DNA from: Candidatus Moraniibacteriota bacterium
GTDB taxonomy: Bacteria; Patescibacteriota; Minisyncoccia; Moranbacterales; UBA2206
Assembly (NCBI GenBank): GCA_030645735.1
Contig: JAUSNP010000006.1
Span: forward strand, 4,095-68,094
Direction: 5' to 3'
Length of the DNA: 64,000 nucleotides
The position numbers were made by a program, and so were the translations under genes. Shown piece after piece: positions 17,264 to 42,889 of this stretch (positions are counted from its first letter, which is position 1; each line of letters begins with the position of its first letter). Below the pieces are notes generated by a model, which made no database searches, had not been told where the DNA came from, and worked only from the letters and a program-made list of their open reading frames with translations.

Positions 17264-17326
17264 TGTCCATAGTTGAGTCGGTAGATCCGCCAGCTGGCGG
17301 ACTTTTAATCAAACGGTCAGTAGGTT
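17264..17326 (+). pseudogene. Degenerate tRNA-Lys-like fragment (shares 5' half and variable-loop segments with adjacent tRNA-Lys; anticodon arm replaced by GC palindrome tccgccagctggcgga)
   Basis: ccatagttgagtcggtaga and cttttaatcaaacggtc align to ccatagctcagtcggtaga and cttttaagcaaacggtc of the intact tRNA 20 bp downstream; no acceptor/D-stem pairing. Confidence 0.45.
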
Positions 17327-18841
17327 AAAAATAAAATATAATATGCGCCCATAGCTCAGTCGGTAGAGCAGTTGCCTTTTAAGCAAACGGTCCCAAGTTC
17401 GAGTCTTGGTGGGCGCACCTTGATCACTTTTTCTGAATTCTGACAGTTCTTTGAACGGAGATTTCAGCTCTATTACCACGTTTTTCCCATTTATTTTGCA
17501 GTTCGAGCTTATCTTTTTGATGAATTCTCTCTTTTCATCATTAGTTCCCTTTATGTAGCTTAAATAAAGGGATTTTAGGAGTTCGAGTTTTTCGGTAAGT
17601 CTGCGACCGATTGAGTCTTCCTGACCGTTATTGTTAGTCATTTCCTCCTCGATTGATTTCATTTCTCGAAGAATAGATTCCTTCCGATCTTGATATGCTT
17701 CTTTTTCTATGACTTTATCGACGTAAGCATCGGTAAGTCGATCCAAACGAGATTTACATCTTTCTTGGCGAAATTGAATTTCTTGCTGATTCTTCTCCTG
17801 TGTTGTTTCGCGTGATTTTTTCATGCTGGTGACCAGCAAAGAAACCTGCTCAATTTCATCCGGACCCAATTGGAGCGGTCGGAGCAATCCGCGCACTTCC
17901 TGCTCGAAAACTTCTTCCCGGACGCAACTACCCTTGCAAAAGTGACAGCGATAATAGTTGTTTCCTTTTTGCTTTTCTCCGATATACGACCGATTACAAG
18001 ATTGACAGACAAACATCCGCCGAAACAGAAAATCATACCGCCCTGATCCTTTCTTTTTCTTACCACTAAGGATATCCTGGACACTGTCAAACAGGGACTT
18101 GCTGATTAGTGGCTCATGAATGCCGGTAAATATTTCCCCAGTCTTGTTGATTTTAATTATTCCGAAGTAAAACGGACTATGCAGAATCGTCGCAATTCCA
18201 CAACGGGTTAACGCCCCGCCATCCCTGTTCACACACCCCTTTTCAGACATATATGAAGCCAATTTGTCTAACGAATAATCGCCAGTAGCATAAAGTCTGA
18301 ATAATTCTCTGACCAGCGGAGCCTTGGCTGGATCAGGTATCTTGGGTTGGCCTGAGCCCTGATCAAGATATCCGATTGGCGCTCTCATAGGGTAAAGTCC
18401 TTGCTTGAGCCGTCCGTAAAATCCTTTTTTGGTCTCTTCCCTTAGATTGCGGATATAATCGGCGGCTATGACCGCTTGAATATCCGCAGAAAGCCTTCCT
18501 CCTCGCGCATGAAGATCCATATTGTCATGAGCGAAGCGTACATCGGTCCCAGCGTCCAATAATTCGCCCAGGGCAGCCCAATCCTTCAAATTCCGAGCAC
18601 TTCTATCTATCTTGTGAATTATTACTCCTGAGGCCTTTTTGAGGCGCAAATTTCTTAGCATTCGTGAAAAAACCGGACGACCATACTTGGCCGCCGTTTC
18701 ACGCTCTTCAAACCACTCGATTATTTGCAGCTGATTATTTCTGGCATACTGTTCAATGGCAGATTTTTGTTCCTGCAAAGACACGCCTTGCGTTCCCTGG
18801 CGGATAGTTGACACGCGGATATAGCCGTAAACTTGCTGCAT
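17309..18841 (-). CDS. Large serine recombinase (resolvase/invertase N-domain + recombinase domain + zinc ribbon + coiled coil); 3' end of ORF runs antisense through tRNA-Lys
   Basis: YGYIRVSTIRQ...catalytic serine region, SRMLRNL, IHKIDRSARN; later CQSC...RCHFCKGSC zinc ribbon; C-terminal 45 aa are translation of tRNA antisense. Confidence 0.8.
   Translation of the reverse strand: MQQVYGYIRVSTIRQGTQGVSLQEQKSAIEQYARNNQLQIIEWFEERETAAKYGRPVFSRMLRNLRLKKASGVIIHKIDRSARNLKDWAALGELLDAGTDVRFAHDNMDLHARGGRLSADIQAVIAADYIRNLREETKKGFYGRLKQGLYPMRAPIGYLDQGSGQPKIPDPAKAPLVRELFRLYATGDYSLDKLASYMSEKGCVNRDGGALTRCGIATILHSPFYFGIIKINKTGEIFTGIHEPLISKSLFDSVQDILSGKKKKGSGRYDFLFRRMFVCQSCNRSYIGEKQKGNNYYRCHFCKGSCVREEVFEQEVRGLLRPLQLGPDEIEQVSLLVTSMKKSRETTQEKNQQEIQFRQERCKSRLDRLTDAYVDKVIEKEAYQDRKESILREMKSIEEEMTNNNGQEDSIGRRLTEKLELLKSLYLSYIKGTNDEKREFIKKISSNCKINGKNVVIELKSPFKELSEFRKSDQGAPTKTRTWDRLLKRQLLYRLSYGRILYFIFNLLTV
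17345..17417 (+). tRNA. tRNA-Lys (anticodon UUU)
   Basis: gcgccca acceptor, gctcagtcggtagagc D-arm, anticodon loop cuUUUaa, T-arm ccaag-ttcgagt-cttgg, acceptor tgggcgc, discriminator A; CCA not fully encoded. Confidence 0.85.
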
Positions 18842-18892
18842 ATATTTAGGTCAATATCTAATTACCACCCTTCCCTACAGTTTAGAAACTGA

Positions 18893-19078
18893 TCATTCAT
18901 CTGTCAAACCACCTTTTCTATACATCTTTTCATCTTTTTCATAAATATCAAAACACAGTCGGATATATTCTCTAAATAATTCTTCGGCTTCATTCAGTTC
19001 TTCATCATTAAGATGTGGACACCGTTCACGAATAAACGGAATCTCTTTAGTAAAATCAATTTTGTCATATTTGCCCAT
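18893..19078 (-). CDS. Small hypothetical protein
   Basis: 61-aa ORF between recombinase and next gene. Confidence 0.3.
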   Translation of the reverse strand: MGKYDKIDFTKEIPFIRERCPHLNDEELNEAEELFREYIRLCFDIYEKDEKMYRKGGLTDE

Positions 19079-19164
19079 ATAACAAATTTACATATAAACA
19101 GAAAAACGCAATAGGCTACGCAAATCAGACAACAAGCACATATCACTATCTATAACCAAAGTCG

Positions 19165-20475
19165 TTGTTGATATATTCTATGACAATGGATACTAACAAA
19201 AACCAACAAAAAGAATTCAGCAATATTTTCCCAATCACATCCTTGGTCTTACCTGACCATACTCTTTTTGAAATGCTTTATGATCAAGACAACCGGCAAA
19301 CAAATTTCATCAAATGGAAAGCTGGCGAAACCGAAGTAGCCCATTCATTCAAGCTGGAAGAAGATTGGAAGATCGTCCCGTATCGACCGGAAAACCCTTT
19401 GCTACACCAGCGGATTATTCTTTTTCCCACAGAAACCCAGGAGTATTCAGATGATGAAACCCTAATCCGGGAAATCCAATCTTTCATTCATCGCTATGTA
19501 GACGTTTCCGAGACTTTCGAACTCGTTGCTGTCTACTATGTCCTGTTGACGTGGATATATGACACATTCAATGAAATTCCATATTTGCGCGTGAGAGGTG
19601 ACTATGGCAGCGGCAAGACCCGCTTTCTGCAAACCGTTGGCAGTATTTGCTACAAGCCGATTTTTGCTTCTGGCGCTTCAACCGTGGCTCCACTTTTCCA
19701 TATTCTCGATCAGGTAGGCGGCACCCTTATTTTGGATGAGGGCGACTTTCGTTTTAGTGACGAACGAGCTGACATTGCTAAAATCCTCAACAATGGCAAT
19801 GCCAAAGGATTTCCGGTTCTAAGGTGTGAAAAAATCAACCAGCGCGAGTTTGCACCTCGTGCATACACCATCTATGGCCCTAAAATTGTGGCGTCCCGGC
19901 ATGACTATGATGATTTCGCACTGGAGAGCCGGTTTATCACTGAAGATGTCGGACTCGCTGGGGTGCGCGATGATATTCCAATTACTCTACCGATAATTTT
20001 CCAGCATGAAGCCCAGGAACTGAGAAACAAATTACTTTTGTGGCGGTTTCATAATTTCAGCCGGCAGCGCTTTCCGGAAGCCCATGTTGATCCAAAGATT
20101 GACAAAAGGATCAGTCAGATATTCGCCCCGCTTCTAAGTCTCGTTTCTGACCAGGACATTCGAGCCAAAATTGCGAGACTTGCAAGGGACAAAAGCGACG
20201 AGATTCGCAGTGACAGAGGATTTCAGAAGGAGGCCGATGTTCTTATGGCCATTCGAGCGTGTTTGAAAGATGAGCCGATGACAATCTCAGCCATCACCCA
20301 AACTTTCACAAAGCAGTCGGGATTCAATTATGAGCGGCAAATAACGCCGAAATGGATTGGATCAGTGATCCGCAAAAAGCTTCGGCTCCGCACTCGAAAA
20401 AAGAACGGGATTTACGTGTTGGGAGAGAATCAGAAAGAAAAGCTCAAACTCCTTTTCAAAAAATACAATCTCTAA
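19165..20475 (+). CDS. P-loop NTPase of mobile element (possibly VapE/D5-like replication protein)
   Basis: Walker A GDYGSGKT, Walker B-like TLILDEGDF; family assignment tentative. Confidence 0.4.
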   Translation: MLIYSMTMDTNKNQQKEFSNIFPITSLVLPDHTLFEMLYDQDNRQTNFIKWKAGETEVAHSFKLEEDWKIVPYRPENPLLHQRIILFPTETQEYSDDETLIREIQSFIHRYVDVSETFELVAVYYVLLTWIYDTFNEIPYLRVRGDYGSGKTRFLQTVGSICYKPIFASGASTVAPLFHILDQVGGTLILDEGDFRFSDERADIAKILNNGNAKGFPVLRCEKINQREFAPRAYTIYGPKIVASRHDYDDFALESRFITEDVGLAGVRDDIPITLPIIFQHEAQELRNKLLLWRFHNFSRQRFPEAHVDPKIDKRISQIFAPLLSLVSDQDIRAKIARLARDKSDEIRSDRGFQKEADVLMAIRACLKDEPMTISAITQTFTKQSGFNYERQITPKWIGSVIRKKLRLRTRKKNGIYVLGENQKEKLKLLFKKYNL

Positions 20476-20477
20476 AC

Positions 20478-20502
20478 AGGACTTAGGGACTTCAGGGACT
20501 TT
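20478..20502. repeat. Inverted repeat, left copy (three tandem AGGGACTT-like units)
   Basis: aggacttagggacttcagggacttt; reverse complement matches 22607-22631 at 23/25. Confidence 0.65.
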
Positions 20503-20564
20503 GTCCGATGGCCAGCGAGATATATGTCCACAAACTTCCGCGTGACAGGTTGTGATTTTAATGA

Positions 20565-21197
20565 CTATAGAGGCACAAACACGGGCGGGAAAACCCTTCT
20601 TGCAATGAAAACTCCGACTATTCCTACTCCGGGAAATCTCTCAAGGAGCAAGGATTTCATGGCTTTAAAGTGCGCACCAGTAGTTAGCACATCATCGAAT
20701 ATAGCTATGCTTGACGGGATTGGATTCGTCAGGGCCTCGTTTATAGAATATCTCATGCGTATTTCATTTGGAGATGGACGGTCATTTGTATCGTGACTGG
20801 CAACAAAACTATTTTTCTGACACACAAGCTCTCTAATATCCAAGTGCTTTGCAGGGTCAATTTGTTGTAATATTTGCGTTATCCTAGCGTCATACGCGGG
20901 ATCAGCGGGGCTTTTTGATGGTGGAATTGGAACTAGAGTAGTTGTTTCTAGCCATGAACTTTTCAAACCACGTTTAATTATCTGGCCGCATTTTCTGATT
21001 GCTTCTTCTTTCCAATACCATTGGTTAGTTCCCCTATGTTCCGGAGATTTTTTTATATTTAATATCAATGAATTGGTATCACTATATTTAAACCCGCCAC
21101 CACTGGTATAATCACCATGGTAAACACAGATATCACCAGGTTCAAGATAATAATGATCCGGAAATGTAAATTCATCAATGAGCGTAAACAAAGTCAT
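20565..21197 (-). CDS. Phosphoribosyltransferase (PRTase)-fold protein, ComF-like C-terminal domain without zinc finger
   Basis: C-terminal SIAIFDDVLTTGAHFKAMKSLL PRPP-binding-type motif; overlaps dprA stop by 23 nt. Confidence 0.45.
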   Translation of the reverse strand: MTLFTLIDEFTFPDHYYLEPGDICVYHGDYTSGGGFKYSDTNSLILNIKKSPEHRGTNQWYWKEEAIRKCGQIIKRGLKSSWLETTTLVPIPPSKSPADPAYDARITQILQQIDPAKHLDIRELVCQKNSFVASHDTNDRPSPNEIRMRYSINEALTNPIPSSIAIFDDVLTTGAHFKAMKSLLLERFPGVGIVGVFIARRVFPPVFVPL

Positions 21198-22098
21198 TTT
21201 TCAAATGTTTCTTTATGTCTTCATAATCAACTACTCTAATTGCGCCGAGCTTTTCAAATCTCGCGGGCCAAGTAATGTCTGAACGCTTGAAGCAGCTATC
21301 AAGAATGAAAAGCTTTCGCTTTTGATATAATGCCGCTTGGGCCTGTATTAGTGTCCCAGATGTATCGCTTGCTTCAACAATAATGGTAGCTTTAGTAAGA
21401 GCAGACATAGTCTTGTTTCTTTCCGGAAAAAACAACCGATTATGCGTATATATTTGCTGAGAATAACGAAACACTGGCACTTGGCTGATAAGTAAATACT
21501 TTGAAGAAATTAATTTTTGTAAATCGTAATTTTCTTTTGGGTATACCTCAGATATAGGCGTCCCAATAACAGCAATAGTCAAGCCTCCTTCCTCAATCGC
21601 TGTTCTGTGTGCTGTTGTATCAATCCCTTGGGCTAACCCTGAAACTATCGTAAAGTTGTCTTTTACAAGATGTTTAACAAGTTTCACGGTTCTCTTGATA
21701 CCAGCTTCAGATGGTTTTCTACTTCCGACGATTGCAACAGAAGGGGTTTCAACGAGATTCCACCATCCTTGGTAGTAAAGCAGTTCAACAGGATGCATAG
21801 CTTGGCGAAGTTTTTCTGGGTATTCACCTGCATGGTGAATCCGAACACCAAAAGATTTAATATTGGCAGAATTGAGCATTTCGAAGACTTTCTGCCCCAT
21901 ATCCTCGGCCTCAGAGCGCTCGACAAAATCTGATGGCAACGAATTGGGATGCTCCCTGAAAATATCCGCAATCTTTTTAAATGTCGCCCCTTGCTTTGCC
22001 CATAAAACTTCATAGGCACCAAGCTCTAATTTAGGAGAGACGACCATTGAAATCAGGGCATCGTTAGTCCCAGTTTTTAGTAAATCTAGTTGCTGCAT
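21175..22098 (-). CDS. dprA: DprA/Smf (SLOG-fold) DNA-processing protein A family
   Basis: VAIVGSRKPSEAG...IVSGLAQGIDTTAHRTAIEEGGLTIAVIGTPISEVYPKEN...FFPERNKTMSALTKATIIVEASDTSGTLIQAQAAL matches DprA Rossmann domain. Confidence 0.7.
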   Translation of the reverse strand: MQQLDLLKTGTNDALISMVVSPKLELGAYEVLWAKQGATFKKIADIFREHPNSLPSDFVERSEAEDMGQKVFEMLNSANIKSFGVRIHHAGEYPEKLRQAMHPVELLYYQGWWNLVETPSVAIVGSRKPSEAGIKRTVKLVKHLVKDNFTIVSGLAQGIDTTAHRTAIEEGGLTIAVIGTPISEVYPKENYDLQKLISSKYLLISQVPVFRYSQQIYTHNRLFFPERNKTMSALTKATIIVEASDTSGTLIQAQAALYQKRKLFILDSCFKRSDITWPARFEKLGAIRVVDYEDIKKHLKNDFVYAH

Positions 22099-22236
22099 AC
22101 GTAGAACCCTAAAGCTTAAGAGGCGAACCGAATAGATTTATAGATAACGATGGACTTTAACATTTTTGGGTTGGATCGCAAGAGCATTGTAGCTAGACGA
22201 AGTTCACATTATTTCTACAAGATGCGATTATCGAAA

Positions 22237-22485
22237 CTACCGATCTTTGCTTGACTGCGACAAAACAGACGCAGCTAAAGTTTTGGTGTCATCACTATAT
22301 TTATCACTTTGCAGAACTTTTGAGGCCTTGGTTTCGAGTTCCGCCCCTGTTTGCTTGCAAGTGTTCGTCTGAGAAATAACTGATGCTGCAAGGCTTTTCG
22401 CAATCTGCGATGCCTTGGAATCTGTCAAAGTGTTAGCGGCAAGTTTAGCGACTTTGGAAGATGATTGCTTCGTATTTTTGTTCAT
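22237..22485 (-). CDS. Small hypothetical protein with internal K-x-LAASV-x-SQ repeats
   Basis: GGAGGT SD upstream; 82 aa. Confidence 0.3.
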   Translation of the reverse strand: MNKNTKQSSSKVAKLAANTLTDSKASQIAKSLAASVISQTNTCKQTGAELETKASKVLQSDKYSDDTKTLAASVLSQSSKDR

Positions 22486-22606
22486 CACGAATAACCTCCA
22501 TAATTTTGTTAAGCGGGAAAAAGAAACTTATTTTTTGTATACCCGTTCCGCGCAAAAAATCAATGCTGTTGCTAGATTGACTAATATTCAACACCTTTAC
22601 GTCTTT

Positions 22607-22631
22607 CAAGTCCCTAAAGTCCCTAAGTCCT
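22607..22631. repeat. Inverted repeat, right copy
   Basis: caagtccctaaagtccctaagtcct = reverse complement of 20478-20502 with 2 mismatches. Confidence 0.65.
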
Positions 22632-22747: not shown

Positions 22748-23086
22748 ATGTCATCTCCAAAGCTGGGAAGCTATTTGCGCACCTACCGGATCAAGTCCGG
22801 CCTTACGCAAAAAGATGTAGCTGCGCTCCTAGGCCTGGAAACTGGTAGCACAATTTCCAGAACCGAGAAGGGCAACGGCACTCCTTCCGTCAAAGTAATT
22901 TTGGGATATTGTGTGCTTTTCGAAGCACACCCCCAAGAGCTGGTGCCGGGGATTATCCTCGACATTGAAAACACAATCCATGCCGGTGCGCATACCTTAG
23001 AGGGACAGCTCAAGAAACGCCAGAAAACACCTATGGTGCTGGTGCGTCTCAGGTTTCTCGAAAAGCTATCCCAACTCATGGGATGA
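22748..23086 (+). CDS. XRE-family helix-turn-helix transcriptional regulator
   Basis: YLRTYRIKSGLTQKDVAALLGLETGSTISRTEKG HTH_XRE pattern. Confidence 0.6.
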   Translation: MSSPKLGSYLRTYRIKSGLTQKDVAALLGLETGSTISRTEKGNGTPSVKVILGYCVLFEAHPQELVPGIILDIENTIHAGAHTLEGQLKKRQKTPMVLVRLRFLEKLSQLMG

Positions 23087-23104
23087 CCGTATGCCACCAG
23101 AAGT

Positions 23105-23614: not shown

Positions 23615-23626
23615 GGAGAAACGACC

Positions 23627-24115: not shown

Positions 24116-24219
24116 TCACATCTTTCCCGAGCAGCTTTCATCCTGTCTGCCCCCGCCATTTGTGGTGGCAACTGGCCTTCCTTGCCCATATTCCAACCCA
24201 AACTCAGAAGGAGAAAACT

Positions 24220-24587: not shown

Positions 24588-24629
24588 AATCGTCAAAAAA
24601 AGGGAACGTGACTACGTTCCCTTAATTTT
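24588..24629. repeat. 40-bp direct repeat copy 1 (also a bidirectional terminator hairpin)
   Basis: aatcgtcaaaaaaagggaacgtgactacgttcccttaatttt; identical except A-run length to 32473-32512. Confidence 0.7.
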
Positions 24630-24642
24630 TTATTCTTGACCC

Positions 24643-29252: not shown

Positions 29253-29255
29253 GGT

Positions 29256-33890: not shown

Positions 33891-33893
33891 ATA

Positions 33894-35510: not shown

Positions 35511-37436
35511 CTACGTTTCCTCCTCCTGCCACAATTTTTCCATCTTCTCTTTTGACCTGTTACTAGGAACTCGCTTGCCGTTTTCCCATGATTGAACCGA
35601 GCTAGGATCAGCCCCAAGCAATTTGGCAATTTCCTTTGTAGAGAGTCCAAGGTGTGTCCGGAAAAGGCGTAATCTTTCACCTTCCGTTTGGGAAGGCTCG
35701 ATAAGGCAATATCCCAGGAAAGAAAATATCTTCGGATAATGCCGGACGGAGGGTGGGTAATGGTTCAACTCCCACTTATTAACCGAACAAGAGTCTACAC
35801 CAATCACTTTGGCCACATCTTTCTGCTCAAGGCCAAGTTCCAACCGTTTTGCTCTCAGATGATCGCCAAGAGTTACTAACTCACTGGGATGCTTGGGATT
35901 TTGAGGCCGGACAGAGGCTTTAGTTACAGGTGACAACTTAGCAATGAAACCATGAGTATTCGTTGCTAAGTTGTTGTCATTTAGAAAAAAGGGGAGGTAG
36001 TGCAGATTGACGGCTACTTCGTCTTTGTGGATGATGATGCTTTCGGTAATGGCTTCCACGATTTGGTGTTGTTCGTCGCGTGACATGATCGACCAACGGG
36101 AATGAAGGTCTTTGGTTTCGGACATAATTTGCTCAGAGGATAGATTCTTAATTTTCAAAAAGTCTATCTCACTCTGGAGTTTAGGAAGCTGGTTGTCCAG
36201 TTGAGCAAAACGCTCTTCAAGAGGTCTGTGTTTTCTCCCGAATCCTTCCTTGGAAATCTGTCCGTCCATGTAGAGGTCATAGAGCTTATCCATCTCCCGC
36301 CCAAGATCGGTTTTTTCTTTTTTCAGGACTTCCAGTTGTTGAGACTTTTCCCGGATCGTGTCATCGGCTTGGTGAAAATAGGTGGCCAGGTCATCCTCAG
36401 AAAGCAGGAAATCCTTGAGCTGTTCTTGGTAAATTGCTTCCAAGTCTTCCGCTGGAATTTTGTTGCGGCACTTTACACATGTGTATTTCTTGCTGCCCGA
36501 AGGCACATACATCTTGCCATCACAATGGCAGAAAGTGAGCCCTGCAAAAAGGTGGGTAGCTGGTTTCCTCGGGATTCTTTTTCCGGACTCTTTCTGATCA
36601 GCCAAAATGGCGTTGCATTTTCCCCAGAGTTCTTCCGTAACAATCGGCTCGACGCTGGAAAAGACCCATTGATCTTCCGGTTTGAGCTCCCAATGTTTCC
36701 TGTCACCAGTACTCCGGGTGTAATTGGCCCGACGCATCCCTTTGGCAATAGGATCGGTAAGGAGCCTATCGACTGTGGTGTCTGTAAATTCTCCACCGTT
36801 ACGAGTCCGATAGCCTCTTTGGTTGAGTAACCTTGCCACGGTCTTTTTCCGCTTATGTTCCAAAAACAATTCGAACATAAGTTGGCGGATGGGAGATTCG
36901 TGAGGATTCACGACCAGGCTTTTGCCTTCCCACTGATAGCCGAAAGGGGCAGCCCCTCCGAGTGGTTTTCCTAATTGTGCCCGGATCGGCACAGAGGCGG
37001 CCACTCGATCACTGATTTCTTCGCGCTCCCATTGGGCCATGGCGGCAATCATTGTGTAAAAAAGTCTACCAGCTGGCGAGGTGGTGTCGATAGCCTCCTG
37101 AAGGGAAATCAGACCGGCATCAGATGATCGAAAGATGTCGGCAATGTCCAGAAGTTCACGGGTATTCCGGGCAATGCGTGCTAACTTTGAAAAAATAATC
37201 CCCGAGATATGCCCAGACCGAATGTCAGCAATCATGCGTTGTGCTTCAGGATGATCCAACACGGATTTACCGCTGACGCCGGAAAGATTGTAGAGCTCAA
37301 CAACATTCCAGTTCTTCGACTGCGCGTAGTATCGAGCGCGTTGTTCGTGGTTTTCGGGGCTTTCCCCCTTGGCTTGATCTTCCGTTGATACCCTAACCCA
37401 GATACCGACACGTTTAGAACTTTGCGGTTTATCCAT
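35511..37436 (-). CDS. Large serine recombinase fused to two C-terminal XRE-type HTH domains
   Basis: VGIWVRVSTEDQ catalytic Ser region, recombinase domain, Cys-pair zinc ribbon CHCDGK...CVKCRNK, coiled coil, then two HTH-like segments. Confidence 0.8.
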   Translation of the reverse strand: MDKPQSSKRVGIWVRVSTEDQAKGESPENHEQRARYYAQSKNWNVVELYNLSGVSGKSVLDHPEAQRMIADIRSGHISGIIFSKLARIARNTRELLDIADIFRSSDAGLISLQEAIDTTSPAGRLFYTMIAAMAQWEREEISDRVAASVPIRAQLGKPLGGAAPFGYQWEGKSLVVNPHESPIRQLMFELFLEHKRKKTVARLLNQRGYRTRNGGEFTDTTVDRLLTDPIAKGMRRANYTRSTGDRKHWELKPEDQWVFSSVEPIVTEELWGKCNAILADQKESGKRIPRKPATHLFAGLTFCHCDGKMYVPSGSKKYTCVKCRNKIPAEDLEAIYQEQLKDFLLSEDDLATYFHQADDTIREKSQQLEVLKKEKTDLGREMDKLYDLYMDGQISKEGFGRKHRPLEERFAQLDNQLPKLQSEIDFLKIKNLSSEQIMSETKDLHSRWSIMSRDEQHQIVEAITESIIIHKDEVAVNLHYLPFFLNDNNLATNTHGFIAKLSPVTKASVRPQNPKHPSELVTLGDHLRAKRLELGLEQKDVAKVIGVDSCSVNKWELNHYPPSVRHYPKIFSFLGYCLIEPSQTEGERLRLFRTHLGLSTKEIAKLLGADPSSVQSWENGKRVPSNRSKEKMEKLWQEEET

Positions 37437-37541: not shown

Positions 37542-40500
37542 CTAGCTCTTCATCTTTTTCATTGAGTTTACAATCAGCTTGGCAATTGCGTCCTGCCGTT
37601 GCTTTTGCTGGGCGGCTTCTCCTGCCGTATAGTTCACTCTCACTTTATAACCCCGGATGGTTTTTTGCTGCTCCATTTTTGGGGTCTGTTTTGAGTCAAG
37701 AAACACAATCAGCTCTTCTGGCGAGAGATAACGGATTCTCTCATGAGTGCCAGCATCCAGCACCTCAACTGCCAGTTGACGGATTTTGTTCAGCTGAGAT
37801 TTTTCATGCGAAAGAACCAGTACAGTTTCATATCCGGCGGCCAAACATTTTTGGATATTTTCTAATTCATGAGCAGCCGAGGTGGTCACCGAAATCTCAC
37901 AGGCTAATTTTTCATTCTCTTTCCTAAGGGAAACATCCACGATTCCCGTGCCGCCCAAGACGGATAGCTCGACCTCGGCTTTGTATCCACGCTCTTCTGC
38001 CAAGCGTTTGATGAGCTGCTGAAGGTATCTGTGCTGAACCCCGCCCCGCCCAGAAGTAGGTTGATCAGGTATGGTTGATTTTCTTCGGGCATCATCTTTG
38101 GGTGATTCATTTCGAGGAGATTGTTCAACCGTATTAGGTTGAGCTTCAGACACTCGCTCGACTCTAGACTCTCCATTCTTCTCACCAGCCGGAGGTGGAT
38201 TTTCCGCTTCTAGCATTTCGATTACTTGGCTTTTGGGAGTCCCGTATTTCTCCCTGGATCGATTGACTATGGCCAGTCGAGCTTCGGCATTCTCATTTCT
38301 TTCCGGAAGCGGGAAAGTCCTTAGATTGAAATCGTATTCTGCTTGCTCAATGCGTCCTACGGCTTGGCCAATAGCCAAACTCTGAAGATCCTTGGCATCG
38401 AAAAAAGAAAAGCCACCCGCCAGTTTTACGGCGTCATGATCACCCATGCGAAAGCAGATGCGCGTGTACGGATTGGAAAGTACGGAGCTGGCCACATCGC
38501 GGTCTTTGGACTCTAATTGTCGCAACTCTTGATGAGCCAGAACGAGTCCTAGTCCATATTTTCTGGCTCCGGAGAGAATGCCTTCCATGGAAGGGGTAAT
38601 GAAATTTTGAAATTCATCGATGTACAAGAAAAAGGGCTGCCGCTTTTCTTGCGAAATTGCTTGGCGGCTCAATGCCAATTGATGAATCTTGGCCACGATG
38701 AGGGCACCCAGAAGATATGAGTTCTCTTCGCCGATACCGCCGTGAGAAAGTTTGGCCAAGAAAATCTTTTTCTCATTCATGACTTGGCCAAAGTCGATAC
38801 GGTTTTGTTTCTGTGAGACCATATACCGGATGAGCTTTGGACGTAGAAAGGTATCCAGGCGGGTCAGAACTGGCCCTTGAGGCTTGCCGGTGAGAAGCGG
38901 AAACTCTTTTTCCCAGTAGTAAACAATCTCCTGGTCACGCACGGTTTTTAAATATTTTCGCCGAAAATCCGGTTCAATCAAAAATCGCCGGAGGGTCATG
39001 AGAGTTCCGCCTTCATTACTTTCCAGCATGGCCAAAATTCCATTGGCCAACACTGAATTCATCTGGTCGCCCCAGCTGGTGGACAGTCGGCGAAAGACCC
39101 CGACCAGATCAGAGGCAAGAAGAGTTTTTTCCGTTTCCGAGTGCGCCCCGAAGATATTGAAACCAATCGGGTACTCTTCATCGGTTGGGTCAAACAACAC
39201 TACGTCATCAAGGCGCTGCGGCGGGATAAAGTCCATGATTTGGTCTATTAAATCGCCGTGGGGGTCAAGGACGGCAATTCCGTGGCCATTCTGAATATCT
39301 TGGATGATCAGATTAAGCAGCAGTGTGGATTTACCGGTGCCTGATGCGCCGACGACATACATGTGTCGCAATCTCTGCTCAGAACTGAGCGAGACATTCT
39401 TGATCCGGCCATGGTGGGCATTCTCTCCTAAAAGGAGCTGATGATTTTCTGACAGACCCGGAGCGGCCTTGGTCTTTTTGGCGTTGCGTAAAAACTTTGC
39501 GCTCCTGATCGACGAAGACGGGAAATGGACGAAGTTGATCAACTCATCCAGATTGAGAAGTATTCCGCTCCGGTTGGTCAATCGCCCTACCACATTCTGT
39601 GCATGAATCTCATCGGGATAATCTTTGTTGTGTAGCGGAATGAGGCTATTGCTGCCGGGAGAATTAAATTGAACCAGCGCCCCGCCGAGACTTTTAACGA
39701 TGGAGTTGGCTCTTTGCCGTGATGAACTTTTGGCACCGACTCGGACGACTGCCCCATAGAGAGGTTTCTCAATCTTACTTCTGACACTTTTTGCCAGTTC
39801 GGGGGCATCCGCCAGAAACGGTTTGCCGTTCCAGTCTAGGGCAGCAAATTGCAGACTATCCGCCCACGGACAGCGAGCCGGTAGGAAGATAACTTGAAAA
39901 ATACCGATGTCCGTTTCCTGGCACAGAGACAAGGCACCAATAATTCCAATCAACGGATCGACATCAAATCGGTCAGTACGTTCCAAGGGCAGCATGGATT
40001 CTTGATCCAAGCCGAAATCAACAACAACTGTCTGGTCATTGCGAGGATCTTCCCAGGGGACGGAGAAGAGCCCCTGCTCTTGGGTAATCACAGCCTCGGG
40101 CAGATACGCTTCCAGTTGCGTGAGGATTTCTGGGCGGTCGCGTTGGCGAACAGCCAACTGAACCCAAATTTGGTCGGCAGTGCCGATGAGCTCAAAACAG
40201 ATTGGAAAACGGGAATAACTCAGTGATTGTAGGAATTGATCGGCCAAACGTTTTTTGCATTCATAGGACGGCGGTAGGACAATTTGCAACTCGCAGATTT
40301 CACCTTCGGGAACATACAGGTCGGGCAGATCTTCCGACTCTTCTTCGTAATAGTTGGCGGTGGATTCTTCTGGATTTGGCGATACGGAATTTCGAAATGC
40401 GTCAGCTATCGAGCTAAGAAAGGTGGGCTTCCGCCCGTCATCTATGACTTGGGCTGGCGGAATATAGTGTCCACGAAATGGTTGGAACGGTGGTTCAGGG

Positions 40501-40622
40501 GAGACAGGATAAGGCCAAGTCAAATACCCTCGGGTCCGGTATTCCCAGTCATAGAAGTTTTTAGTGAGAAGCGCGGCCTGGCTTTGCGATGCCGAGCGAT
40601 AGGCTACCGGTGGATCGGCCAT
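37542..40622 (-). CDS. Large (1026 aa) protein with central HerA/DUF87-type P-loop ATPase and C-terminal restriction-endonuclease-like (Mrr-like) domain
   Basis: Walker A GASGTGKSTLLLNLI...VLDPHGD, Walker B FFLYIDEFQNF, ARKYGLGLVLAHQ; C-terminus GYKAEVELSVLGGTGIVDVSL...CEIS...VLVLSHEKS; N-terminal ~400 aa unknown. Confidence 0.5.
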   Translation of the reverse strand: MADPPVAYRSASQSQAALLTKNFYDWEYRTRGYLTWPYPVSPEPPFQPFRGHYIPPAQVIDDGRKPTFLSSIADAFRNSVSPNPEESTANYYEEESEDLPDLYVPEGEICELQIVLPPSYECKKRLADQFLQSLSYSRFPICFELIGTADQIWVQLAVRQRDRPEILTQLEAYLPEAVITQEQGLFSVPWEDPRNDQTVVVDFGLDQESMLPLERTDRFDVDPLIGIIGALSLCQETDIGIFQVIFLPARCPWADSLQFAALDWNGKPFLADAPELAKSVRSKIEKPLYGAVVRVGAKSSSRQRANSIVKSLGGALVQFNSPGSNSLIPLHNKDYPDEIHAQNVVGRLTNRSGILLNLDELINFVHFPSSSIRSAKFLRNAKKTKAAPGLSENHQLLLGENAHHGRIKNVSLSSEQRLRHMYVVGASGTGKSTLLLNLIIQDIQNGHGIAVLDPHGDLIDQIMDFIPPQRLDDVVLFDPTDEEYPIGFNIFGAHSETEKTLLASDLVGVFRRLSTSWGDQMNSVLANGILAMLESNEGGTLMTLRRFLIEPDFRRKYLKTVRDQEIVYYWEKEFPLLTGKPQGPVLTRLDTFLRPKLIRYMVSQKQNRIDFGQVMNEKKIFLAKLSHGGIGEENSYLLGALIVAKIHQLALSRQAISQEKRQPFFLYIDEFQNFITPSMEGILSGARKYGLGLVLAHQELRQLESKDRDVASSVLSNPYTRICFRMGDHDAVKLAGGFSFFDAKDLQSLAIGQAVGRIEQAEYDFNLRTFPLPERNENAEARLAIVNRSREKYGTPKSQVIEMLEAENPPPAGEKNGESRVERVSEAQPNTVEQSPRNESPKDDARRKSTIPDQPTSGRGGVQHRYLQQLIKRLAEERGYKAEVELSVLGGTGIVDVSLRKENEKLACEISVTTSAAHELENIQKCLAAGYETVLVLSHEKSQLNKIRQLAVEVLDAGTHERIRYLSPEELIVFLDSKQTPKMEQQKTIRGYKVRVNYTAGEAAQQKQRQDAIAKLIVNSMKKMKS

Positions 40623-40635
40623 GCTTCACCGACAG

Positions 40636-41172
40636 TTATAGGTTGAAGAAATTACGCATCACTGGCTTCCGATCAGTTTCTGAGAGGACTTTGAGTCCAT
40701 TGGTCTTGGTCATGCCATCCACCACTTCCAACACGGCGCTATGAACCAGGGACTGATACATGCTGGCGGTATCAACGGTGTAATACGTGGTGGTACGGAA
40801 CCATTTTTCCATCAAAGATCCAAGAATCGGAATCCACAGTATGAGTGACCAGAAAAACGAAGGCATTTCTCCCAGCCACCAGGAAATGAAGAAGCCATTG
40901 CCAAAAGGAGCGCCACAAATATCAAAGGTCAGTCTCTTTCTGCGAACACGTAGATATTCCCGTTTTGCAGAAAAGATGCCCCCTTCCTTCCAATCTACAC
41001 GGGAAAACTTGGCCTCGGGGATTAGTTTTGTTTTTAGAGCATTTTGCACATCGTCATAAAATTCTTTCGGCGAAGCAGTCAGGCCTTCGACAAAAGTGCT
41101 CCAGTGGGAAATTACCATGGGGGCTTTGGGCATGGATATTCTCCTTAGCAGAATTTGAAGCCAAAAACGCAC
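40636..41172 (-). CDS. Small membrane protein
   Basis: 178 aa with hydrophobic helices FFISWWLGEMPSFFWSLILWIPILGSL. Confidence 0.4.
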   Translation of the reverse strand: MRFWLQILLRRISMPKAPMVISHWSTFVEGLTASPKEFYDDVQNALKTKLIPEAKFSRVDWKEGGIFSAKREYLRVRRKRLTFDICGAPFGNGFFISWWLGEMPSFFWSLILWIPILGSLMEKWFRTTTYYTVDTASMYQSLVHSAVLEVVDGMTKTNGLKVLSETDRKPVMRNFFNL

Positions 41173-41232
41173 AAAATAGAGTTGGATAGTTACCGATTAC
41201 CAGCGACATTTCAATGACAAAAAGCTGAGACA

Positions 41233-42408
41233 CTAATTTTCTTGGCTACCACAAGGTGATATTGTTACGGCGCTGAATGGGAGGGATGGTTTGCCGTCGA
41301 TCATTAACTTCAGGTAGATATGATAATTAGGTAGGCGCATGAGGTCATGAGAGGTAAATATTCCCTGAAATTCTTTTTCAAGGAAGGTGGCATCTCTGCC
41401 ACCCAAGCGAAAGCAGATGAGTGTTCCGGCGTTTCCAATTACGGCATTCCGGATTTTGACATCCAGCTGGTCAAGGTATTGGTGCGCGAGAATGAGGCCA
41501 ACGTGATACTTTCTGAGTTCTGAAGCCATGTTGACGAGAGAAAGCGTAGTAAACGATTGGAACTCATCGGCATAGAGAGCAAAGTCCCGCCTCTCCTGTT
41601 CAGGGCTATCCGCACGGCTGAAGGCGGCCAGTCCAACCGAAGTCATGAGGAGTCCACCAAGAAGCAAGGAAGCATCTTCACCTAATTTACCCTTGGCCAA
41701 GTTGACCAGCAGAACTTGGCCGTTATCCATAATCCGACGCAAGCTGAGGGCTTGTTTCGGTTCAGTGAGGACTTGCTTGAGAACCGGATTGGCCAGAAAA
41801 GCCCCAATCTTATTTTGAATTGGCGCAATAGCGTCAGCGCGCATCCGGTAAGAATACTTTTCGTACTCTTGGAGCCAGAAAGATTTTACCAGCTCATTCT
41901 CAACCCACTTCAGGGCTTTGTGCCGGTAAGTGGGACTATTGAACAGTTGAAGAATATCGGCGAGAGTGGCATGAGGTTGATCAAGGAGGGTCAGGAGACA
42001 ATTTCGAAAGATGTGTTCCATTCGCACTCCCCAAGCATCACCCCATTGTTTTTTGAAGACCTCAAGGATGCCTGAGGCTAATAATGGGCGGCGCTTGGGT
42101 GAAACATGGCGAATAGGATTGTATCCAATTCCCAGGGTGTTTTCCGCGACATCCCAATAGATCACGCTTGGGTTATTTTTAACTGCCGCATAGATTTTTT
42201 GCGATGAGTCACCGTGAGGGTCGAAAAAAACCAGACCTCTTTGGCTAGAGATGTCTTGAAGGATGAGGTTTTCGAGGAGAGTGGACTTTCCCGTGCCGGT
42301 TTTGCCGATTATGTAAATATGGGATAATCTATCTTTGCTTTTGATGTAGAATTGGAGCTCAGATCCTCGAAAATTGGTTATTCCGATGAGGTATGTTTGT
42401 TTTTTCAT
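41233..42408 (-). CDS. HerA/DUF87-type P-loop ATPase (FtsK/HerA/TraD superfamily)
   Basis: GKTGTGKSTLLENLI...FFDPHGD, Walker B FALYADEFQSF, LRKYHVGLILAHQ. Confidence 0.55.
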   Translation of the reverse strand: MKKQTYLIGITNFRGSELQFYIKSKDRLSHIYIIGKTGTGKSTLLENLILQDISSQRGLVFFDPHGDSSQKIYAAVKNNPSVIYWDVAENTLGIGYNPIRHVSPKRRPLLASGILEVFKKQWGDAWGVRMEHIFRNCLLTLLDQPHATLADILQLFNSPTYRHKALKWVENELVKSFWLQEYEKYSYRMRADAIAPIQNKIGAFLANPVLKQVLTEPKQALSLRRIMDNGQVLLVNLAKGKLGEDASLLLGGLLMTSVGLAAFSRADSPEQERRDFALYADEFQSFTTLSLVNMASELRKYHVGLILAHQYLDQLDVKIRNAVIGNAGTLICFRLGGRDATFLEKEFQGIFTSHDLMRLPNYHIYLKLMIDGKPSLPFSAVTISPCGSQEN

Positions 42409-42889
42409 GCCATTTAATGATAGGAGGACTAGCGTAAGCGTTAAAGGCTGTGAGTTTTGAATGCAAACCTAATTTTTATTGGGTAATATACAAAAAGAGT
42501 GCGAGTGGCGATTTAACAATCCAAAACCTGATGAGCAATTAAAGCTCTTAAAACAGCTAGTTAAAAAATATGGGCTAGTTATCTAGGACAGTCCCAAGAA
42601 CATTATTCAATAAAAGCTGAGTTATTGAGAAAGTCGCGATTTACTAAGCATTCCCATATTGTGTTAACTAGCCGATATTACGGGGCATAACTCTAGCGTC
42701 AAACTTTGCGCAAATATTTGCCGAACTGTGAAGTTCTTAATAAGTATCGAATACTGAATGCGCCACCAGAGGACATTACGTAAATATTATCGTCATCGTC
42801 CACAACGTTACGCATACACACAGTCGTCAATAGAGTGACGGAAACTTGCCGATGGAAACATATTACAAACCTATACCAAAATTATCCTA

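What the first reader, a model, noticed from the sequence alone, without database searches (positions are those of the whole stretch)
17264..42800. Integrative island of about 25 kb at tRNA-Lys carrying two large serine recombinases
Base composition becomes visibly GC-richer from just after tRNA-Lys (17417) to about 42.8 kb, then drops back to very AT-rich DNA. The segment carries two large serine recombinases (17309-18841 and 35511-37436, the latter fused to HTH domains). It also carries RadC-JAB, an XRE regulator, an AP2-like DNA-binding protein, a P-loop replication-like protein, DprA, two HerA-like ATPases and the HXS cluster, but no phage structural genes. This composition suggests an integrative, possibly mobilisable or conjugative, element rather than a prophage. 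Large serine recombinases do not create long direct repeats, so the exact right end is not obvious.
Basis: partly seen in the sequence, partly recalled or inferred. Interest (0 to 1): 0.6.

Follow-up and report, generated by a model that had tools for sequence, protein, structure and literature searches.

The report
Two-recombinase mobile defence island at tRNA-Lys
This is a roughly 36 kb mobile island in a tiny-genome (CPR) bacterium that entered a tRNA-Lys gene through a recombination site lying inside its own serine-recombinase gene, and it belongs to a widespread, apparently undescribed family that carries two such recombinases for two different chromosomal targets.

Summary
The island is real, but it is larger than reported and organised differently.

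**Host and left junction.** The host is a Candidatus Moranbacteria MAG. The left junction lies at the 3' end of tRNA-Lys (window about 17,420). There the ORF of the first large serine recombinase (LSR1) runs antisense into the tRNA.

**Right end.** The native 46-aa LSR1 tail is known from a 93%-identical sister element. In the window it lies at 45,228-45,347 and again at 52,874-53,021. The LSR1 recombination site (attP) is therefore inside the gene, and integration split the gene.
- The right end is at 45.35 kb at the least.
- It is most likely 53.02 kb, giving 35.6 kb rather than 25 kb.

**Corrected annotations.**
- "DprA" is ShosA of a Shosta defence system.
- Gabija lies in the extra 10 kb.
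- The two "HerA-like ATPases" and the second recombinase (LSR2) are conserved backbone genes of the same element family.

**Related loci.**
- LSR1 is fused to a tRNA in all 13 CPR copies: 12 ARAGORN-called tRNAs of six amino-acid types, plus one that is tRNA-like.
- LSR1 is intact in all of about 65 non-CPR copies.
- In those non-CPR copies LSR2 is the split gene, fused to comM in four loci.
- In 16 of about 75 loci, direct repeats of the LSR1 tail delimit arrays of accessory-gene cassettes.

The element is not a prophage and not a self-transmissible ICE.

The parts
17345..17419 (+). tRNA-Lys(TTT), the chromosomal target (attB left half). The gene stays complete after integration.
   Evidence: ARAGORN; Rfam RF00005 71 bits; sequence.
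17408..17430 (.). attL junction: ...GGGCGCACC|TTGATCAC... Homology to the sister element L003 starts at 17412. The core GGTG(C), read on the LSR strand, is shared with attP.
17420..18841 (-). LSR1 core (474 aa). The ORF continues to 17309 through the antisense of tRNA-Lys, which replaces the native 46-aa tail.
   Evidence: Pfam Resolvase 6e-27 and Recombinase 1e-16. 93% identical to P0001. Tail analysis. dN/dS 0.05-0.10.
18893..19078 (-). 61-aa protein just upstream of LSR1. It is conserved in close relatives and is a candidate regulator or directionality factor (inference).
   Evidence: tblastn in 7 loci; gene calls in L004, L006, L093.
19165..20475 (+). p436, a conserved P-loop protein (Walker A GDYGSGKTR). 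It is a backbone gene of the family and its function is unknown.
   Evidence: Present in 39 of 80 loci; alignment A4; no Pfam, PHROGs or PDB match.
20478..22631 (.). Cargo slot bounded by 24-nt inverted repeats (3x AGGGACTT) at 20478-20501 and 22608-22631. It holds the Shosta system: ShosT 20565-21197(-) and ShosA 21175-22098(-).
   Evidence: Inverted repeat. PADLOC ShosA 8e-101 and ShosT 5e-47. Homology to L011, L006 and L004 breaks at 20502-20504 on the p436 side and, for L011, exactly at 22608 on the XRE side (L006 resumes at 22709).
22748..24585 (+). Backbone module: XRE regulator, p169 (RuvC-like motif, inference), RadC-JAB, DUF3768.
   Evidence: Pfam; XRE in 45 and p169 in 49 of 80 loci.
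24597..32516 (.). Cargo region bounded by two 37-nt hairpin repeats (24597-24633 and 32480-32516). It holds two secreted proteins, AP2, an MBL-fold protein, HxsA/C/B/D (27499-31060, -) and an S1/P1-like nuclease.
   Evidence: Repeat; Pfam; NCBIfam HxsB 566, HxsC 362 and HxsD 62 bits, all above their cut-offs. Homology to L003 breaks at 24633 and resumes at 27498.
32769..35422 (+). Cargo: NdpA-like nucleoid protein, a 406-aa partner (phrog_5023; weak match to an anti-phage model) and a 78-aa protein.
   Evidence: Pfam NA37 9e-52; NCBIfam NF053869 at 82 bits, below its cut-off; PHROGs.
35511..37436 (-). LSR2, intact, with its native 2xHTH C-terminal tail. The predicted second attP lies inside the ORF at about aa 497-502 (window about 35,925-35,945).
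   Evidence: Pfam. Homologues occur in long and short forms. Junctions with comM in L052, L072, L035, L082. Detached HTH tail in L012.
37542..42408 (-). Backbone module: 1026-aa coupling-protein-like ATPase, 178-aa protein, 391-aa DUF87/TrwB-like ATPase.
   Evidence: Pfam and NCBIfam. ATP391 in 30 loci, p178 in 7 and T4CP in 7 of 80 loci. Same order in L094.
42890..45184 (+). AT-rich cargo (GC 0.33-0.36): two unknown membrane proteins and a VTT/DedA protein.
   Evidence: Lies inside the element because tail1 lies beyond it.
45228..45347 (-). tail1: the detached 3' end of the LSR1 gene (P arm of attP). It is either the attR of a minimal element or an internal array site.
   Evidence: tblastn to the P0001 tail 89% aa, E 1.5e-20. 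blastn to L003 93% over 120 nt, ending at the core. Left arm ...CTTGACA|GGTG resembles array sites in L066 and L011.
45348..52873 (+). Cassette between the two tail copies: 232-aa protein, M23 peptidase-CARDB protein, and Gabija (GajA 48852-51002, GajB 50986-52854).
   Evidence: PADLOC GajA 3.5e-208 and GajB 4e-176; Pfam. The same tail-GajB-GajA order occurs in L006.
52874..53021 (-). tail2: a second, more diverged copy of the LSR1 tail. It is the most likely attR, the outer right end of the island, and sits 50 nt before the host EamA gene.
   Evidence: tblastn 69% aa, E 2e-17; blastn to L003 89% over 106 nt; 106-nt direct repeat. Composition returns to core values here.

Best explanation
The segment from about 17,420 to about 53,020 is one integrative mobile element in a Candidatus Moranbacteria chromosome.

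**How it integrated (shown by sequence comparison).**
- Its integrase LSR1 carries the element's recombination site (attP) inside the 3' end of its own gene, at the codons ...Q-G-A-P (GGTGC).
- Recombination with the 3' end of tRNA-Lys (...GCGCACC) joined the LSR1 core to the antisense tRNA. This is attL.
- The native 46-codon tail was left at the far end of the element. This is attR.
- Two direct copies of that tail are present. They bracket a 7.7 kb Gabija/M23 module.

**How the site is recognised (inferred).** The attP arm contains an invariant TCGAAC that mimics the tRNA T-loop, about 6 bp further from the core than in the tRNA. This matches the known attP/attB half-site offset of serine integrases. 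It would explain why any tRNA gene can serve as a target.

**The second recombinase (shown in related loci, inferred for this copy).** LSR2 has its own ORF-internal attP, aimed at the conserved AAMNP-coding region of comM. That site is unused and intact here.

**Gene content.**
- Backbone: LSR1, p61, p436, XRE, p169, RadC, DUF3768, two coupling-protein-like ATPases, p178, LSR2.
- Cargo: exchangeable defence or conflict genes, namely Shosta, Hxs, NdpA-pair and Gabija.

**Not established.** Excision, the directionality factor and the route of cell-to-cell transfer.
For: - **Split gene.** The tail of P0001 (the 93%-identical LSR1 homologue, locus L003) is absent at 17.4 kb. It is found at 45,341-45,228 (E 1.5e-20) and 53,017-52,874 (E 2e-17).
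- **Junction sequences.** Alignment of attP (L003), attL and both tail sites shows homology switching exactly at GGTG(C).
- **Independent integrations of relatives at the same codon.** They lie in tRNA-Leu(taa) (L004), tRNA-Ala(ggc) (L093) and in Glu, Ala, Arg, Gln and Leu tRNAs of ten CPR genomes; one of these (L050) is tRNA-like but cut by the locus end. About 65 non-CPR loci keep the intact tail.
- **DNA-level constraint on the tail.** TCGAAC is invariant and Arg is always encoded CGA across phyla.
- **Insertion at the core.** L062 differs from L060 (99.9% identical backbones) by 5.9 kb inserted exactly at the core. The insert consists of cassettes, each with its own tail copy.
- **Tail arrays.** Found in 16 of about 75 loci, all in direct orientation.
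- **Shared backbone.** Backbone genes are shared across loci, and true LSR2 orthologues occur in the same elements.
- **LSR2 split in non-CPR loci.** It is split at comM in L052, L072, L035 and L082. Its HTH tail is detached by 20 kb in L012. It is intact wherever LSR1 is split (window, L094).
- **Selection.** The LSR1 core is under purifying selection, dN/dS 0.05-0.10.
- **Composition.** The anomaly spans 17.4 to about 52.5 kb.
Against: - No empty site was found. Relatives of the host are not syntenic and a metagenome scan for the reconstructed attB gave nothing.
- No excised circle of this element was observed.
- Which tail copy is the true attR is unresolved. tail1 is closer to the sister element's tail (93% against 89% nt).
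- The compact sister element L093/L094 shows no recognisable tail at its far end within the DNA held.
- All relatives are metagenome assemblies, and repeats can be misassembled. However, arrays also occur on complete long-read chromosomes such as L087.
- The half-site spacing argument is inference only.
Confidence: 0.8

Rival explanations
1. There are two separate integration events in tandem (accretion). A complete 27.9 kb LSR1 element (17,420-45,347) would sit next to the 7.7 kb relic of an older, related element (45,348-53,021). That relic would have kept only its right end (Gabija plus tail2) and lost its recombinase. This resembles tandem ssrA islands in Dehalococcoides and SCC composite islands.
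For: - tail1 is the closer match to the sister element's tail, and the two copies are only 86% identical to each other.
- Tandem recombinase-less islands delimited by repeats are documented for serine-recombinase islands at ssrA (PMC3146451).
Against: - No LSR remnant lies right of tail1.
- The left arm of tail1 resembles array-site arms in L066 and L011 rather than AT-rich host DNA.
- In L062 versus L060, cassettes with their own tails are inserted at the recombinase-proximal site of an element that is not at a tRNA at all. Arrays can therefore form without tRNA accretion.
- A canonical serine integrase should not use the attL left by a first element as a target.
Confidence: 0.3
2. The tail repeats mark an integron-like platform. 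LSR1 would insert and excise small circular cassettes, each carrying a tail-like site, at the site in its own 3' end. Integration of the whole element into a tRNA would be the same reaction with the chromosome as partner.
For: - L060, L062 and L056 share one backbone but have 0, 3 and 1 cassettes at the core.
- Arrays of up to 4 sites occur, always in direct orientation and always downstream of LSR1.
- Cassette genes are accessory or conflict genes: OLD nucleases, Fic, PIN, Schlafen/AlbA_2, kinase, APH.
- Left arms are enriched in short palindromes, 55% against 14%.
Against: - Canonical large serine integrases recombine only attP with attB.
- No free cassette circle was observed.
- The arrays could equally arise by alternate use of attR sites during excision (gene capture).
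- Only two sites are present in this window.
Confidence: 0.35
3. The region is a prophage or a self-transmissible conjugative element (ICE).
For: - Two coupling-protein-like ATPases.
- RadC and DUF3768 are common on conjugative elements (own knowledge).
Against: - No capsid, portal, terminase or tail genes in Pfam or PHROGs.
- No VirB4, relaxase or other mating-pair genes. The coupling-protein matches are all far below family cut-offs.
- No relatives in 2.9 million viral contigs.
Confidence: 0.05
4. The region is ancestral host DNA of unusual composition, not a mobile insertion.
For: No empty site could be found.
Against: - The same backbone, at 72-94% identity, lies next to unrelated genes in L003, L004, L006, L011 and L093/94.
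- The family occurs in many phyla at about 50% identity.
- The recombinase ORF is fused to a tRNA.
- GC skew and 4-mer signals break at both ends.
Confidence: 0.02

Closest known systems
Dehalococcoides ssrA-specific genomic islands (DsiB, CcrB-like serine recombinase; PMC3146451)
   Same: - A large serine recombinase gene sits next to attL.
- Integration is into the 3' T-loop region of a tRNA-like gene.
- Several modules lie in tandem, delimited by direct repeats, and some lack a recombinase.
- There is no phage or conjugation machinery.
   Different: - There the repeat is a 20-bp copy of the target (ssrA) and the recombinase gene is not split. Here the repeat is the recombinase's own 3' coding tail and the target is any of at least seven tRNA types.
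- There is no second, comM-directed recombinase there.
SSV-type 'suicidal' tyrosine integrases of archaeal elements (PMC7253208); Myxococcus phage Mx8 IntP (own knowledge)
   Same: attP lies inside the integrase ORF, so integration into a tRNA gene splits or re-tails the integrase gene.
   Different: - Those are tyrosine recombinases. Here the enzyme is a serine recombinase.
- Only a 46-aa tail is exchanged here. The 474-aa core remains an intact ORF under purifying selection.
Serine integrases targeting Mg-chelatase/comM (12.4% of site-specific LSRs in PMC10083194; Wolbachia sr1WO prophages, PMC9203015)
   Same: - LSR2 relatives are found fused to a truncated comM at the AAMNP motif.
- In sr1WO, HTH_XRE genes sit at the prophage end opposite the recombinase. 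The detached HTH tail in L012 has the same arrangement.
   Different: - LSR2 is at most 28% identical to any GenBank phage integrase.
- It rides in a non-phage element together with a second integrase.
- In this window it is unused.
SCCmec and SCC composite islands (CcrA/CcrB)
   Same: - Two serine recombinases in one element.
- Integration at the 3' end of a conserved gene while preserving that gene.
- Recombinase-less modules separated by direct repeats.
   Different: - CcrA and CcrB are adjacent and act together on one site.
- Here the two recombinases are 17 kb apart, and each is split in a different host group. This implies two alternative sites.
Integrons
   Same: Arrays of promoter-less accessory cassettes, all in one orientation, lie next to the recombinase gene. 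Each cassette ends in a repeated recombination site.
   Different: - Integrons use a tyrosine integrase (IntI) and folded attC sites.
- Here the recombinase is a serine recombinase, the repeat is about 70 bp, and the repeat also encodes the recombinase's C-terminus.
- The mechanism is unproven.

Membership tests
Large serine recombinase (LSR1 and LSR2) | N-terminal resolvase catalytic domain with the serine nucleophile | tested here: met
   PF00239 6e-27 (LSR1) and 6e-31 (LSR2). The R-V-S-T motif is invariant in alignment A2.
Large serine recombinase (LSR1 and LSR2) | Recombinase domain (PF07508) followed by a zinc ribbon and coiled coil | tested here: inconclusive
   PF07508 is met (1e-16 and 1e-19). 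PF13408 scores 16.9 and 17.3 bits, below the 25.3 cut-off, but four Cys (C279, C282, C299, C302) are invariant in A2. The coiled coil was not tested.
Large serine recombinase (LSR1 and LSR2) | attP and attB share only a short core, so there are no long target duplications | tested here: met
   attP, attL and the tail sites share only GGTG(C) plus a few bases.
Large serine recombinase (LSR1 and LSR2) | Catalysis of attP x attB recombination, with excision dependent on a directionality factor | not testable with these tools
   No assay is possible, and no directionality factor was identified.
Integrase with attP inside its own ORF (SSV-type arrangement) | The recombination site lies within the integrase coding sequence, so the gene is split on integration | tested here: met
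   The LSR1 tail is detached to 45.3 and 53.0 kb. The LSR2 tail is detached in L012, and the core is fused to comM in four loci.
Integrase with attP inside its own ORF (SSV-type arrangement) | Tyrosine recombinase fold, with both halves becoming inactive pseudogenes | tested here: not met
   The enzyme is a serine recombinase. The 474-aa core ORF is intact, with dN/dS 0.05-0.10 between integrated copies.
Integrative and conjugative element (ICE) | Mating-pair formation genes (VirB4 and others) and a relaxase | tested here: not met
   There are only coupling-protein-like matches far below their cut-offs, and no VirB4 or relaxase family hit.
Prophage | Capsid, portal, terminase and tail genes | tested here: not met
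   None found in Pfam or PHROGs. No relatives in viral contigs.
Integron | IntI tyrosine integrase with attI and attC hairpin sites | tested here: not met
   There is no tyrosine recombinase in the island. The repeats are about 70-bp coding tails.
Integron | Co-oriented cassette array next to the recombinase gene | tested here: met
   There are two sites in the window, and 16 of about 75 related loci have 2-4 sites.
Shosta defence system | Adjacent ShosT (PRTase-like) and ShosA (DprA-like) genes | tested here: met
   PADLOC ShosT 5e-47 and ShosA 8e-101, in overlapping genes at 20565-22098. Anti-phage activity was not tested.
Gabija defence system | Adjacent GajA (ATPase-TOPRIM) and GajB (UvrD-like helicase) genes | tested here: met
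   PADLOC GajA 3.5e-208 and GajB 4e-176; Pfam AAA_15, OLD TOPRIM and UvrD.
His-Xaa-Ser (Hxs) system | HxsA repeat peptide with the HxsB and HxsC radical SAM enzymes and HxsD | tested here: met
   HxsB 566 (cut-off 370), HxsC 362 (268) and HxsD 62 (50) bits. HxsA scores 76 bits, below its 122 cut-off, but carries the H-x-S repeats.

The most novel reading that the evidence does not exclude
This may be a previously undescribed class of mobile element, found from CPR bacteria to Acidobacteriota and Proteobacteria, that carries two "self-splitting" large serine recombinases.
- One recombinase has its attP inside its own 3' end and uses a tRNA T-arm mimic to enter any tRNA gene.
- The other does the same with comM.
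- The element can therefore choose between two universal targets, depending on the host.
- The tRNA-type site would also act as an integron-like dock. It would accumulate defence-gene cassettes, each of which supplies a fresh C-terminal tail to the recombinase.
Probability: 0.4. Interest if true: 0.88.

Novelty: new variant of a known kind. Interest (0 to 1): 0.78.

Why it matters
- **CPR biology.** CPR/Patescibacteria have genomes of about 1 Mb, and almost nothing is known about their mobile DNA. Here a single element makes up tens of kilobases and brings at least two recognised anti-phage systems, Shosta and Gabija.
- **Finding element ends.** A serine integrase whose site lies inside its own gene gives a purely computational way to find both ends of such islands. 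This is normally the hard part for serine-recombinase elements.
- **Genome engineering.** A recombinase that recognises the universal tRNA T-arm and acceptor end would be a broad-host "landing" enzyme.
- **Gene flow.** The two-integrase design and the tail-repeat cassette arrays suggest a new route by which defence genes are shuffled between very distant phyla.

Tried and rejected
**Searches for an empty site**
- Genome-contig scan with the flanking DUF218 protein found no relatives.
- Homologues of that protein at 60-70% identity lie in non-syntenic contexts or on short contigs.
- A metagenome scan for the reconstructed attB gave 0 hits.
- Exact look-ups of window proteins found only the same sample. 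Its Logan contigs break inside the tRNA and at the 37-nt repeat, which is uninformative.

**Other searches that gave nothing useful**
- Viral-contig scans with both recombinases found nothing.
- Rfam found only the tRNA. The 106-nt repeat is not a known RNA.
- p436: there are no matches in Pfam, PHROGs, NCBIfam or PADLOC, and nothing in a profile search of PDB sequences. Structure prediction was not run, because the alignment holds sequences the tool would refuse.
- The far end of the compact sister element L093/L094 shows no recognisable tail.

**Ideas rejected**
- That LSR2 plus the ATPases form a second element nested at 35.4-42.8 kb. Their orthologues co-occur with LSR1 backbones in many genomes.
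- A tyrosine-integrase-style search for a direct repeat of the tRNA 3' end. No such repeat exists.
- That the LSR1 pseudo-tail is a real conserved protein motif. The conservation is at DNA level.
- A first attempt to extract the comM fragment picked a spurious GC-rich frame. This was corrected.

Full report
**1. Observation**

The window holds one tRNA, tRNA-Lys(TTT), at 17345-17419.

The host core genes all lie on the + strand:
- dnaJ, a DUF218 gene and a 166-aa membrane protein lie on the left.
- EamA, frr, rseP, mreBCD and pbp2 lie on the right.
- GC skew in these regions is +0.15 to +0.2.

Between about 17.4 and about 52.5 kb the composition differs from the core:
- GC skew collapses to about 0.
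- GC rises to 0.45-0.50 in two blocks, then drops to 0.33-0.36 at 42-46 kb.
- Tetranucleotide correlation with the core stays below 0.89. It returns to 0.93 or more only in the 51-54 kb window.

The GC step at 42.8 kb, however, is internal to the anomaly and is not its end.

The 100%-identical DUF218 protein is annotated "MAG: Candidatus Moranbacteria bacterium" on a 329.6 kb NCBI contig. The host is therefore a CPR/Patescibacteria organism.

**2. Gene content**

LSR1 (17309-18841, -) and LSR2 (35511-37436, -) both have Resolvase and Recombinase domains. LSR2 ends in two XRE-type HTH domains.

Several annotations need correcting or adding:
- The "DprA" protein is ShosA (8e-101). With the overlapping PRTase-like ShosT (5e-47) it forms a Shosta system.
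- HxsB, HxsC and HxsD pass NCBIfam cut-offs.
- The 1026-aa and 391-aa ATPases match TrwB/TraD/DUF87 models only weakly.
- Beyond 42.8 kb lie three AT-rich membrane-protein genes, an M23 peptidase and a full Gabija system (GajA 3.5e-208, GajB 4e-176).
- No phage structural, relaxase or T4SS genes were detected.

**3. The left junction and the split recombinase**

The last 37 codons of the LSR1 ORF (…GAPTKTRTWDRLLKRQLLYRLSYG…) are the antisense reading of tRNA-Lys.

A homologue search returned a large family. The closest member, P0001, is 93% identical and lies on Logan contig L003.
- P0001 ends instead in …GAPCRTTNRKKGVIIYRKRKCTAKKAKQIYAILLKDDSSS.
- tblastn of that tail against the window finds it on the minus strand at 45,341-45,228 (89%, E 1.5e-20) and at 53,017-52,874 (69%, E 2e-17).
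- These are the two copies of a 106-nt direct repeat seen earlier.
- At DNA level the window matches L003 continuously from 17,412 to 24,633 and again at 27,498-30,747.
- Both tails match up to the core: 45,229-45,347 at 93% and 52,914-53,019 at 89%.

The junction sequences, read on the LSR strand, are:
- attP (L003): GTGATCAA|GGTGCCCCTTGTCGAACAACAAATCGAAAG
- attL: GTGATCAA|GGTGCGCCCACCAAGACTCGAACTTGGGAC
- tail1: CCACCTTGACA|GGTGCCCTTGTCGAAC…
- tail2: TTTATACTG|TGTGCCCCTTGTCGAAC…

LSR1's attP therefore lies inside its own ORF. Integration into the tRNA 3' end detached the 46-codon tail to the other end of the element.

**4. Independent support from relatives**

A scan of one genome per species with an LSR1 alignment found 414 relatives, and 80 loci were kept.

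Every CPR locus shows the LSR1 ORF running into an antisense tRNA right after GGTG:
- These are Zambryskibacteria x2, Liptonbacteria, Paceibacteria, Doudnabacteria x2, Saccharibacteria x3 and a Patescibacteria MAG.
- The tRNAs are Glu, Ala, Arg, Gln and Leu. One locus (L050) is tRNA-like but is cut by the locus end.
- The same holds for L004 (Parcubacteria, tRNA-Leu-taa) and L093 (tRNA-Ala-ggc).

All of about 65 non-CPR loci keep an intact tail. Several of these are on Mb-scale or complete chromosomes.

The tail DNA holds an invariant TCGAAC, with Arg always encoded CGA even in GC-rich phyla. This indicates a DNA-level constraint rather than a protein-level one.
- The motif lies about 24 nt from the core in attP and 18 nt from it in the tRNA, where it is the T-loop.
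- I read this as the known outward shift of the zinc-ribbon-binding motif in attP relative to attB half-sites (PMC3783163 and own knowledge). This is inference.

The LSR1 core is under purifying selection, with dN/dS 0.05-0.10. That includes comparisons between integrated copies.

**5. The second recombinase explains the non-CPR copies**

tblastn of all island proteins against the loci shows a shared backbone:

| Gene | Loci with a match (of 80) |
|---|---|
| p436 | 39 |
| XRE | 45 |
| p169 | 49 |
| 391-aa ATPase | 30 |
| p178 | 7 |
| 1026-aa ATPase | 7 |

True LSR2 orthologues (55-67% identical) lie in the same elements, in seven loci: L012, L035, L050, L052, L072, L076 and L082.

LSR2 homologues come in two forms:
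- a long form with the 2xHTH tail, which includes Patescibacteria MAGs;
- a short form ending near …HGFIAA(T/I)S at about aa 502.

In L052, L072, L035 and L082 that end abuts, antisense, a truncated comM. The comM reading is …LRQPLExGxVxIARAxxxxxYPxRxQL(I/V)AAMNP|. Pfam gives Mg_chelatase 2e-75 and ChlI 1e-39.

In L012 the detached HTH tail, starting exactly at LSR2 residue 503, lies 20 kb away on the other side of the backbone.

LSR2 therefore also has its site inside its own ORF, and its target is comM.

In every locus where both genes are visible, exactly one of them is split:
- LSR1 is split in the window and in L093/L094, where LSR2 is full length.
- LSR2 is split in the non-CPR loci.

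Mg-chelatase/comM is already known as the commonest target of serine integrases (PMC10083194). It is also the target of Wolbachia sr1WO prophages, which carry HTH_XRE genes at the far end (PMC9203015).

**6. Tail repeats and the right end**

L060 and L062 share a 99.9%-identical backbone. L062 has an extra 5.9 kb inserted exactly at the core. The insert is three cassettes, each followed by its own roughly 70-bp tail copy. The distal copy equals L060's single tail. L056 has the same backbone with one cassette.

Sixteen of about 75 loci have 1-3 extra tail copies:
- All are in direct orientation.
- All are downstream of LSR1.
- Homology starts at xGTG.

Cassette ORFs encode OLD-family nucleases, Fic, PIN, Schlafen/AlbA_2, a kinase, APH and others. 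The non-repeated left arms are enriched in short palindromes, 55% against 14%.

In the window, several observations favour one 35.6 kb element whose attR is tail2, with tail1 as an internal array site:
- The left arm of tail1 (…CACCACCTTGACA|GGTG) resembles array arms in L066 and L011.
- L006 shows LSR-tail-(methyltransferase)-GajB-GajA, which is the order seen at tail2.
- Composition is anomalous out to about 52.5 kb.

The alternative is a 27.9 kb element plus an older relic, as in Dehalococcoides ssrA islands (PMC3146451). It is not excluded, because tail1 is the closer match to the sister tail.

**7. What it is not**

Both recombinases are at most 28% identical to any GenBank phage integrase. 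They have a single distant plasmid relative, in Sulfitobacter at 43.5%, which sits next to DUF3768 and a coupling-protein-like gene. No viral-contig relatives were found.

Literature searches found:
- the tyrosine "suicidal" integrases (PMC7253208);
- tycheposons, which are mostly tyrosine-recombinase elements;
- the papers cited above.

They found nothing describing this LSR1 family, targeting of tRNA genes (as opposed to the tmRNA gene) by serine recombinases, or tail arrays.

**8. Limits**

- No empty site and no excised circle were obtained.
- All relatives are metagenome assemblies.
- The directionality factor, replication and transfer functions are unknown. p436 has no detectable homologue of known structure.
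- The half-site and integron-like interpretations are inference.

**9. Verdict**

The finding is real and more interesting than reported. It is a 35.6 kb (at minimum 27.9 kb) serine-recombinase element integrated at tRNA-Lys of a CPR bacterium. Its ends are defined by a self-split integrase gene. It carries a second, unused, comM-directed integrase, together with Shosta, Hxs and Gabija. It represents a widespread and apparently undescribed family.

Noticed in passing
window 17264-17330: A degenerate tRNA-Lys-like sequence lies 14 nt upstream of the real tRNA-Lys. It has a D-arm and an anticodon loop CTTTTAA, with a palindromic insertion CCGCCAGCTGGCGG, and no T-arm. It is host DNA, because it is also on the host-flank contig L001. 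It does not end at the recombinase crossover point.
   Followed up: partly
window 20478-20501 and 22608-22631: 24-nt inverted repeats made of AGGGACTT units flank the Shosta genes. Homology to L011, L006 and L004 breaks at 20502-20504 on the p436 side and, for L011, exactly at 22608 on the XRE side. Those elements hold other cargo in this position (for example DnaB_C in L006), so it behaves as a defined exchange slot. The repeats could be iterons for the adjacent P-loop protein p436.
   Followed up: partly
window 24597-24633 and 32480-32516: A 37-nt GC hairpin followed by a T-run (AAAAAGGGAACGTGACTACGTTCCCTTAATTTT) occurs twice, 97% identical, and brackets the AP2/MBL/Hxs/nuclease cargo. Homology with L003 breaks at the first copy, and a Logan contig of the source sample starts at the second.
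   Followed up: partly
window 27499-31958; L003 1-3260; L072 14.8-17.5 kb: The His-Xaa-Ser (Hxs) radical-SAM cluster travels as cargo of this element family in at least three loci. In the window it sits next to an S1/P1-like nuclease, and in L003 next to an SNase. This hints that the still uncharacterised Hxs system is a conflict or defence module.
   Followed up: no
window 32769-35114: An NdpA-like nucleoid-associated protein is paired with a 406-aa membrane-anchored protein. The partner matches phrog_5023 at 3e-53, and matches an NCBIfam 'anti-phage protein' model at 82 bits, below that model's cut-off. This is a possible two-gene defence candidate.
   Followed up: no
window 23105-23614: p169 is the most widely conserved backbone partner, present in 49 of 80 loci and always next to the XRE gene. 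It starts with LAIDPTSRGFGYAL…LILED, which resembles the RuvC/RNase H-like catalytic motif. No family model matches it.
   Followed up: no
L093 1317-8084 / L094 14902-21669: In the Shosta slot, the compact sister element carries a ThiF/E1-E2 fusion, a JAB peptidase and a DHH phosphoesterase. These are ubiquitin-like conjugation genes of the kind linked to CBASS or Bil-type defence.
   Followed up: no
L006 11.7-21.6 kb: Downstream of the intact LSR1 tail lies a dense run of defence genes: a methyltransferase, Gabija, DUF932, RloB with an AAA_21 protein, and patatin with a DncV-like cyclase (CBASS).
   Followed up: no
window 46545-48629: A 694-aa secreted protein has an N-terminal M23 peptidase domain and two CARDB domains. 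It lies inside the tail-flanked cassette next to Gabija. This is unusual cargo and could be a cell-wall hydrolase relevant to an epibiotic lifestyle.
   Followed up: no
L013 versus L029: A 1.6 kb contig binned as Verrucomicrobia (REEB50) carries the same LSR1 3' sequence as a Patescibacteria MAG from the same study (REEB71). This is probably a binning error. It does not affect the CPR versus non-CPR split.
   Followed up: no
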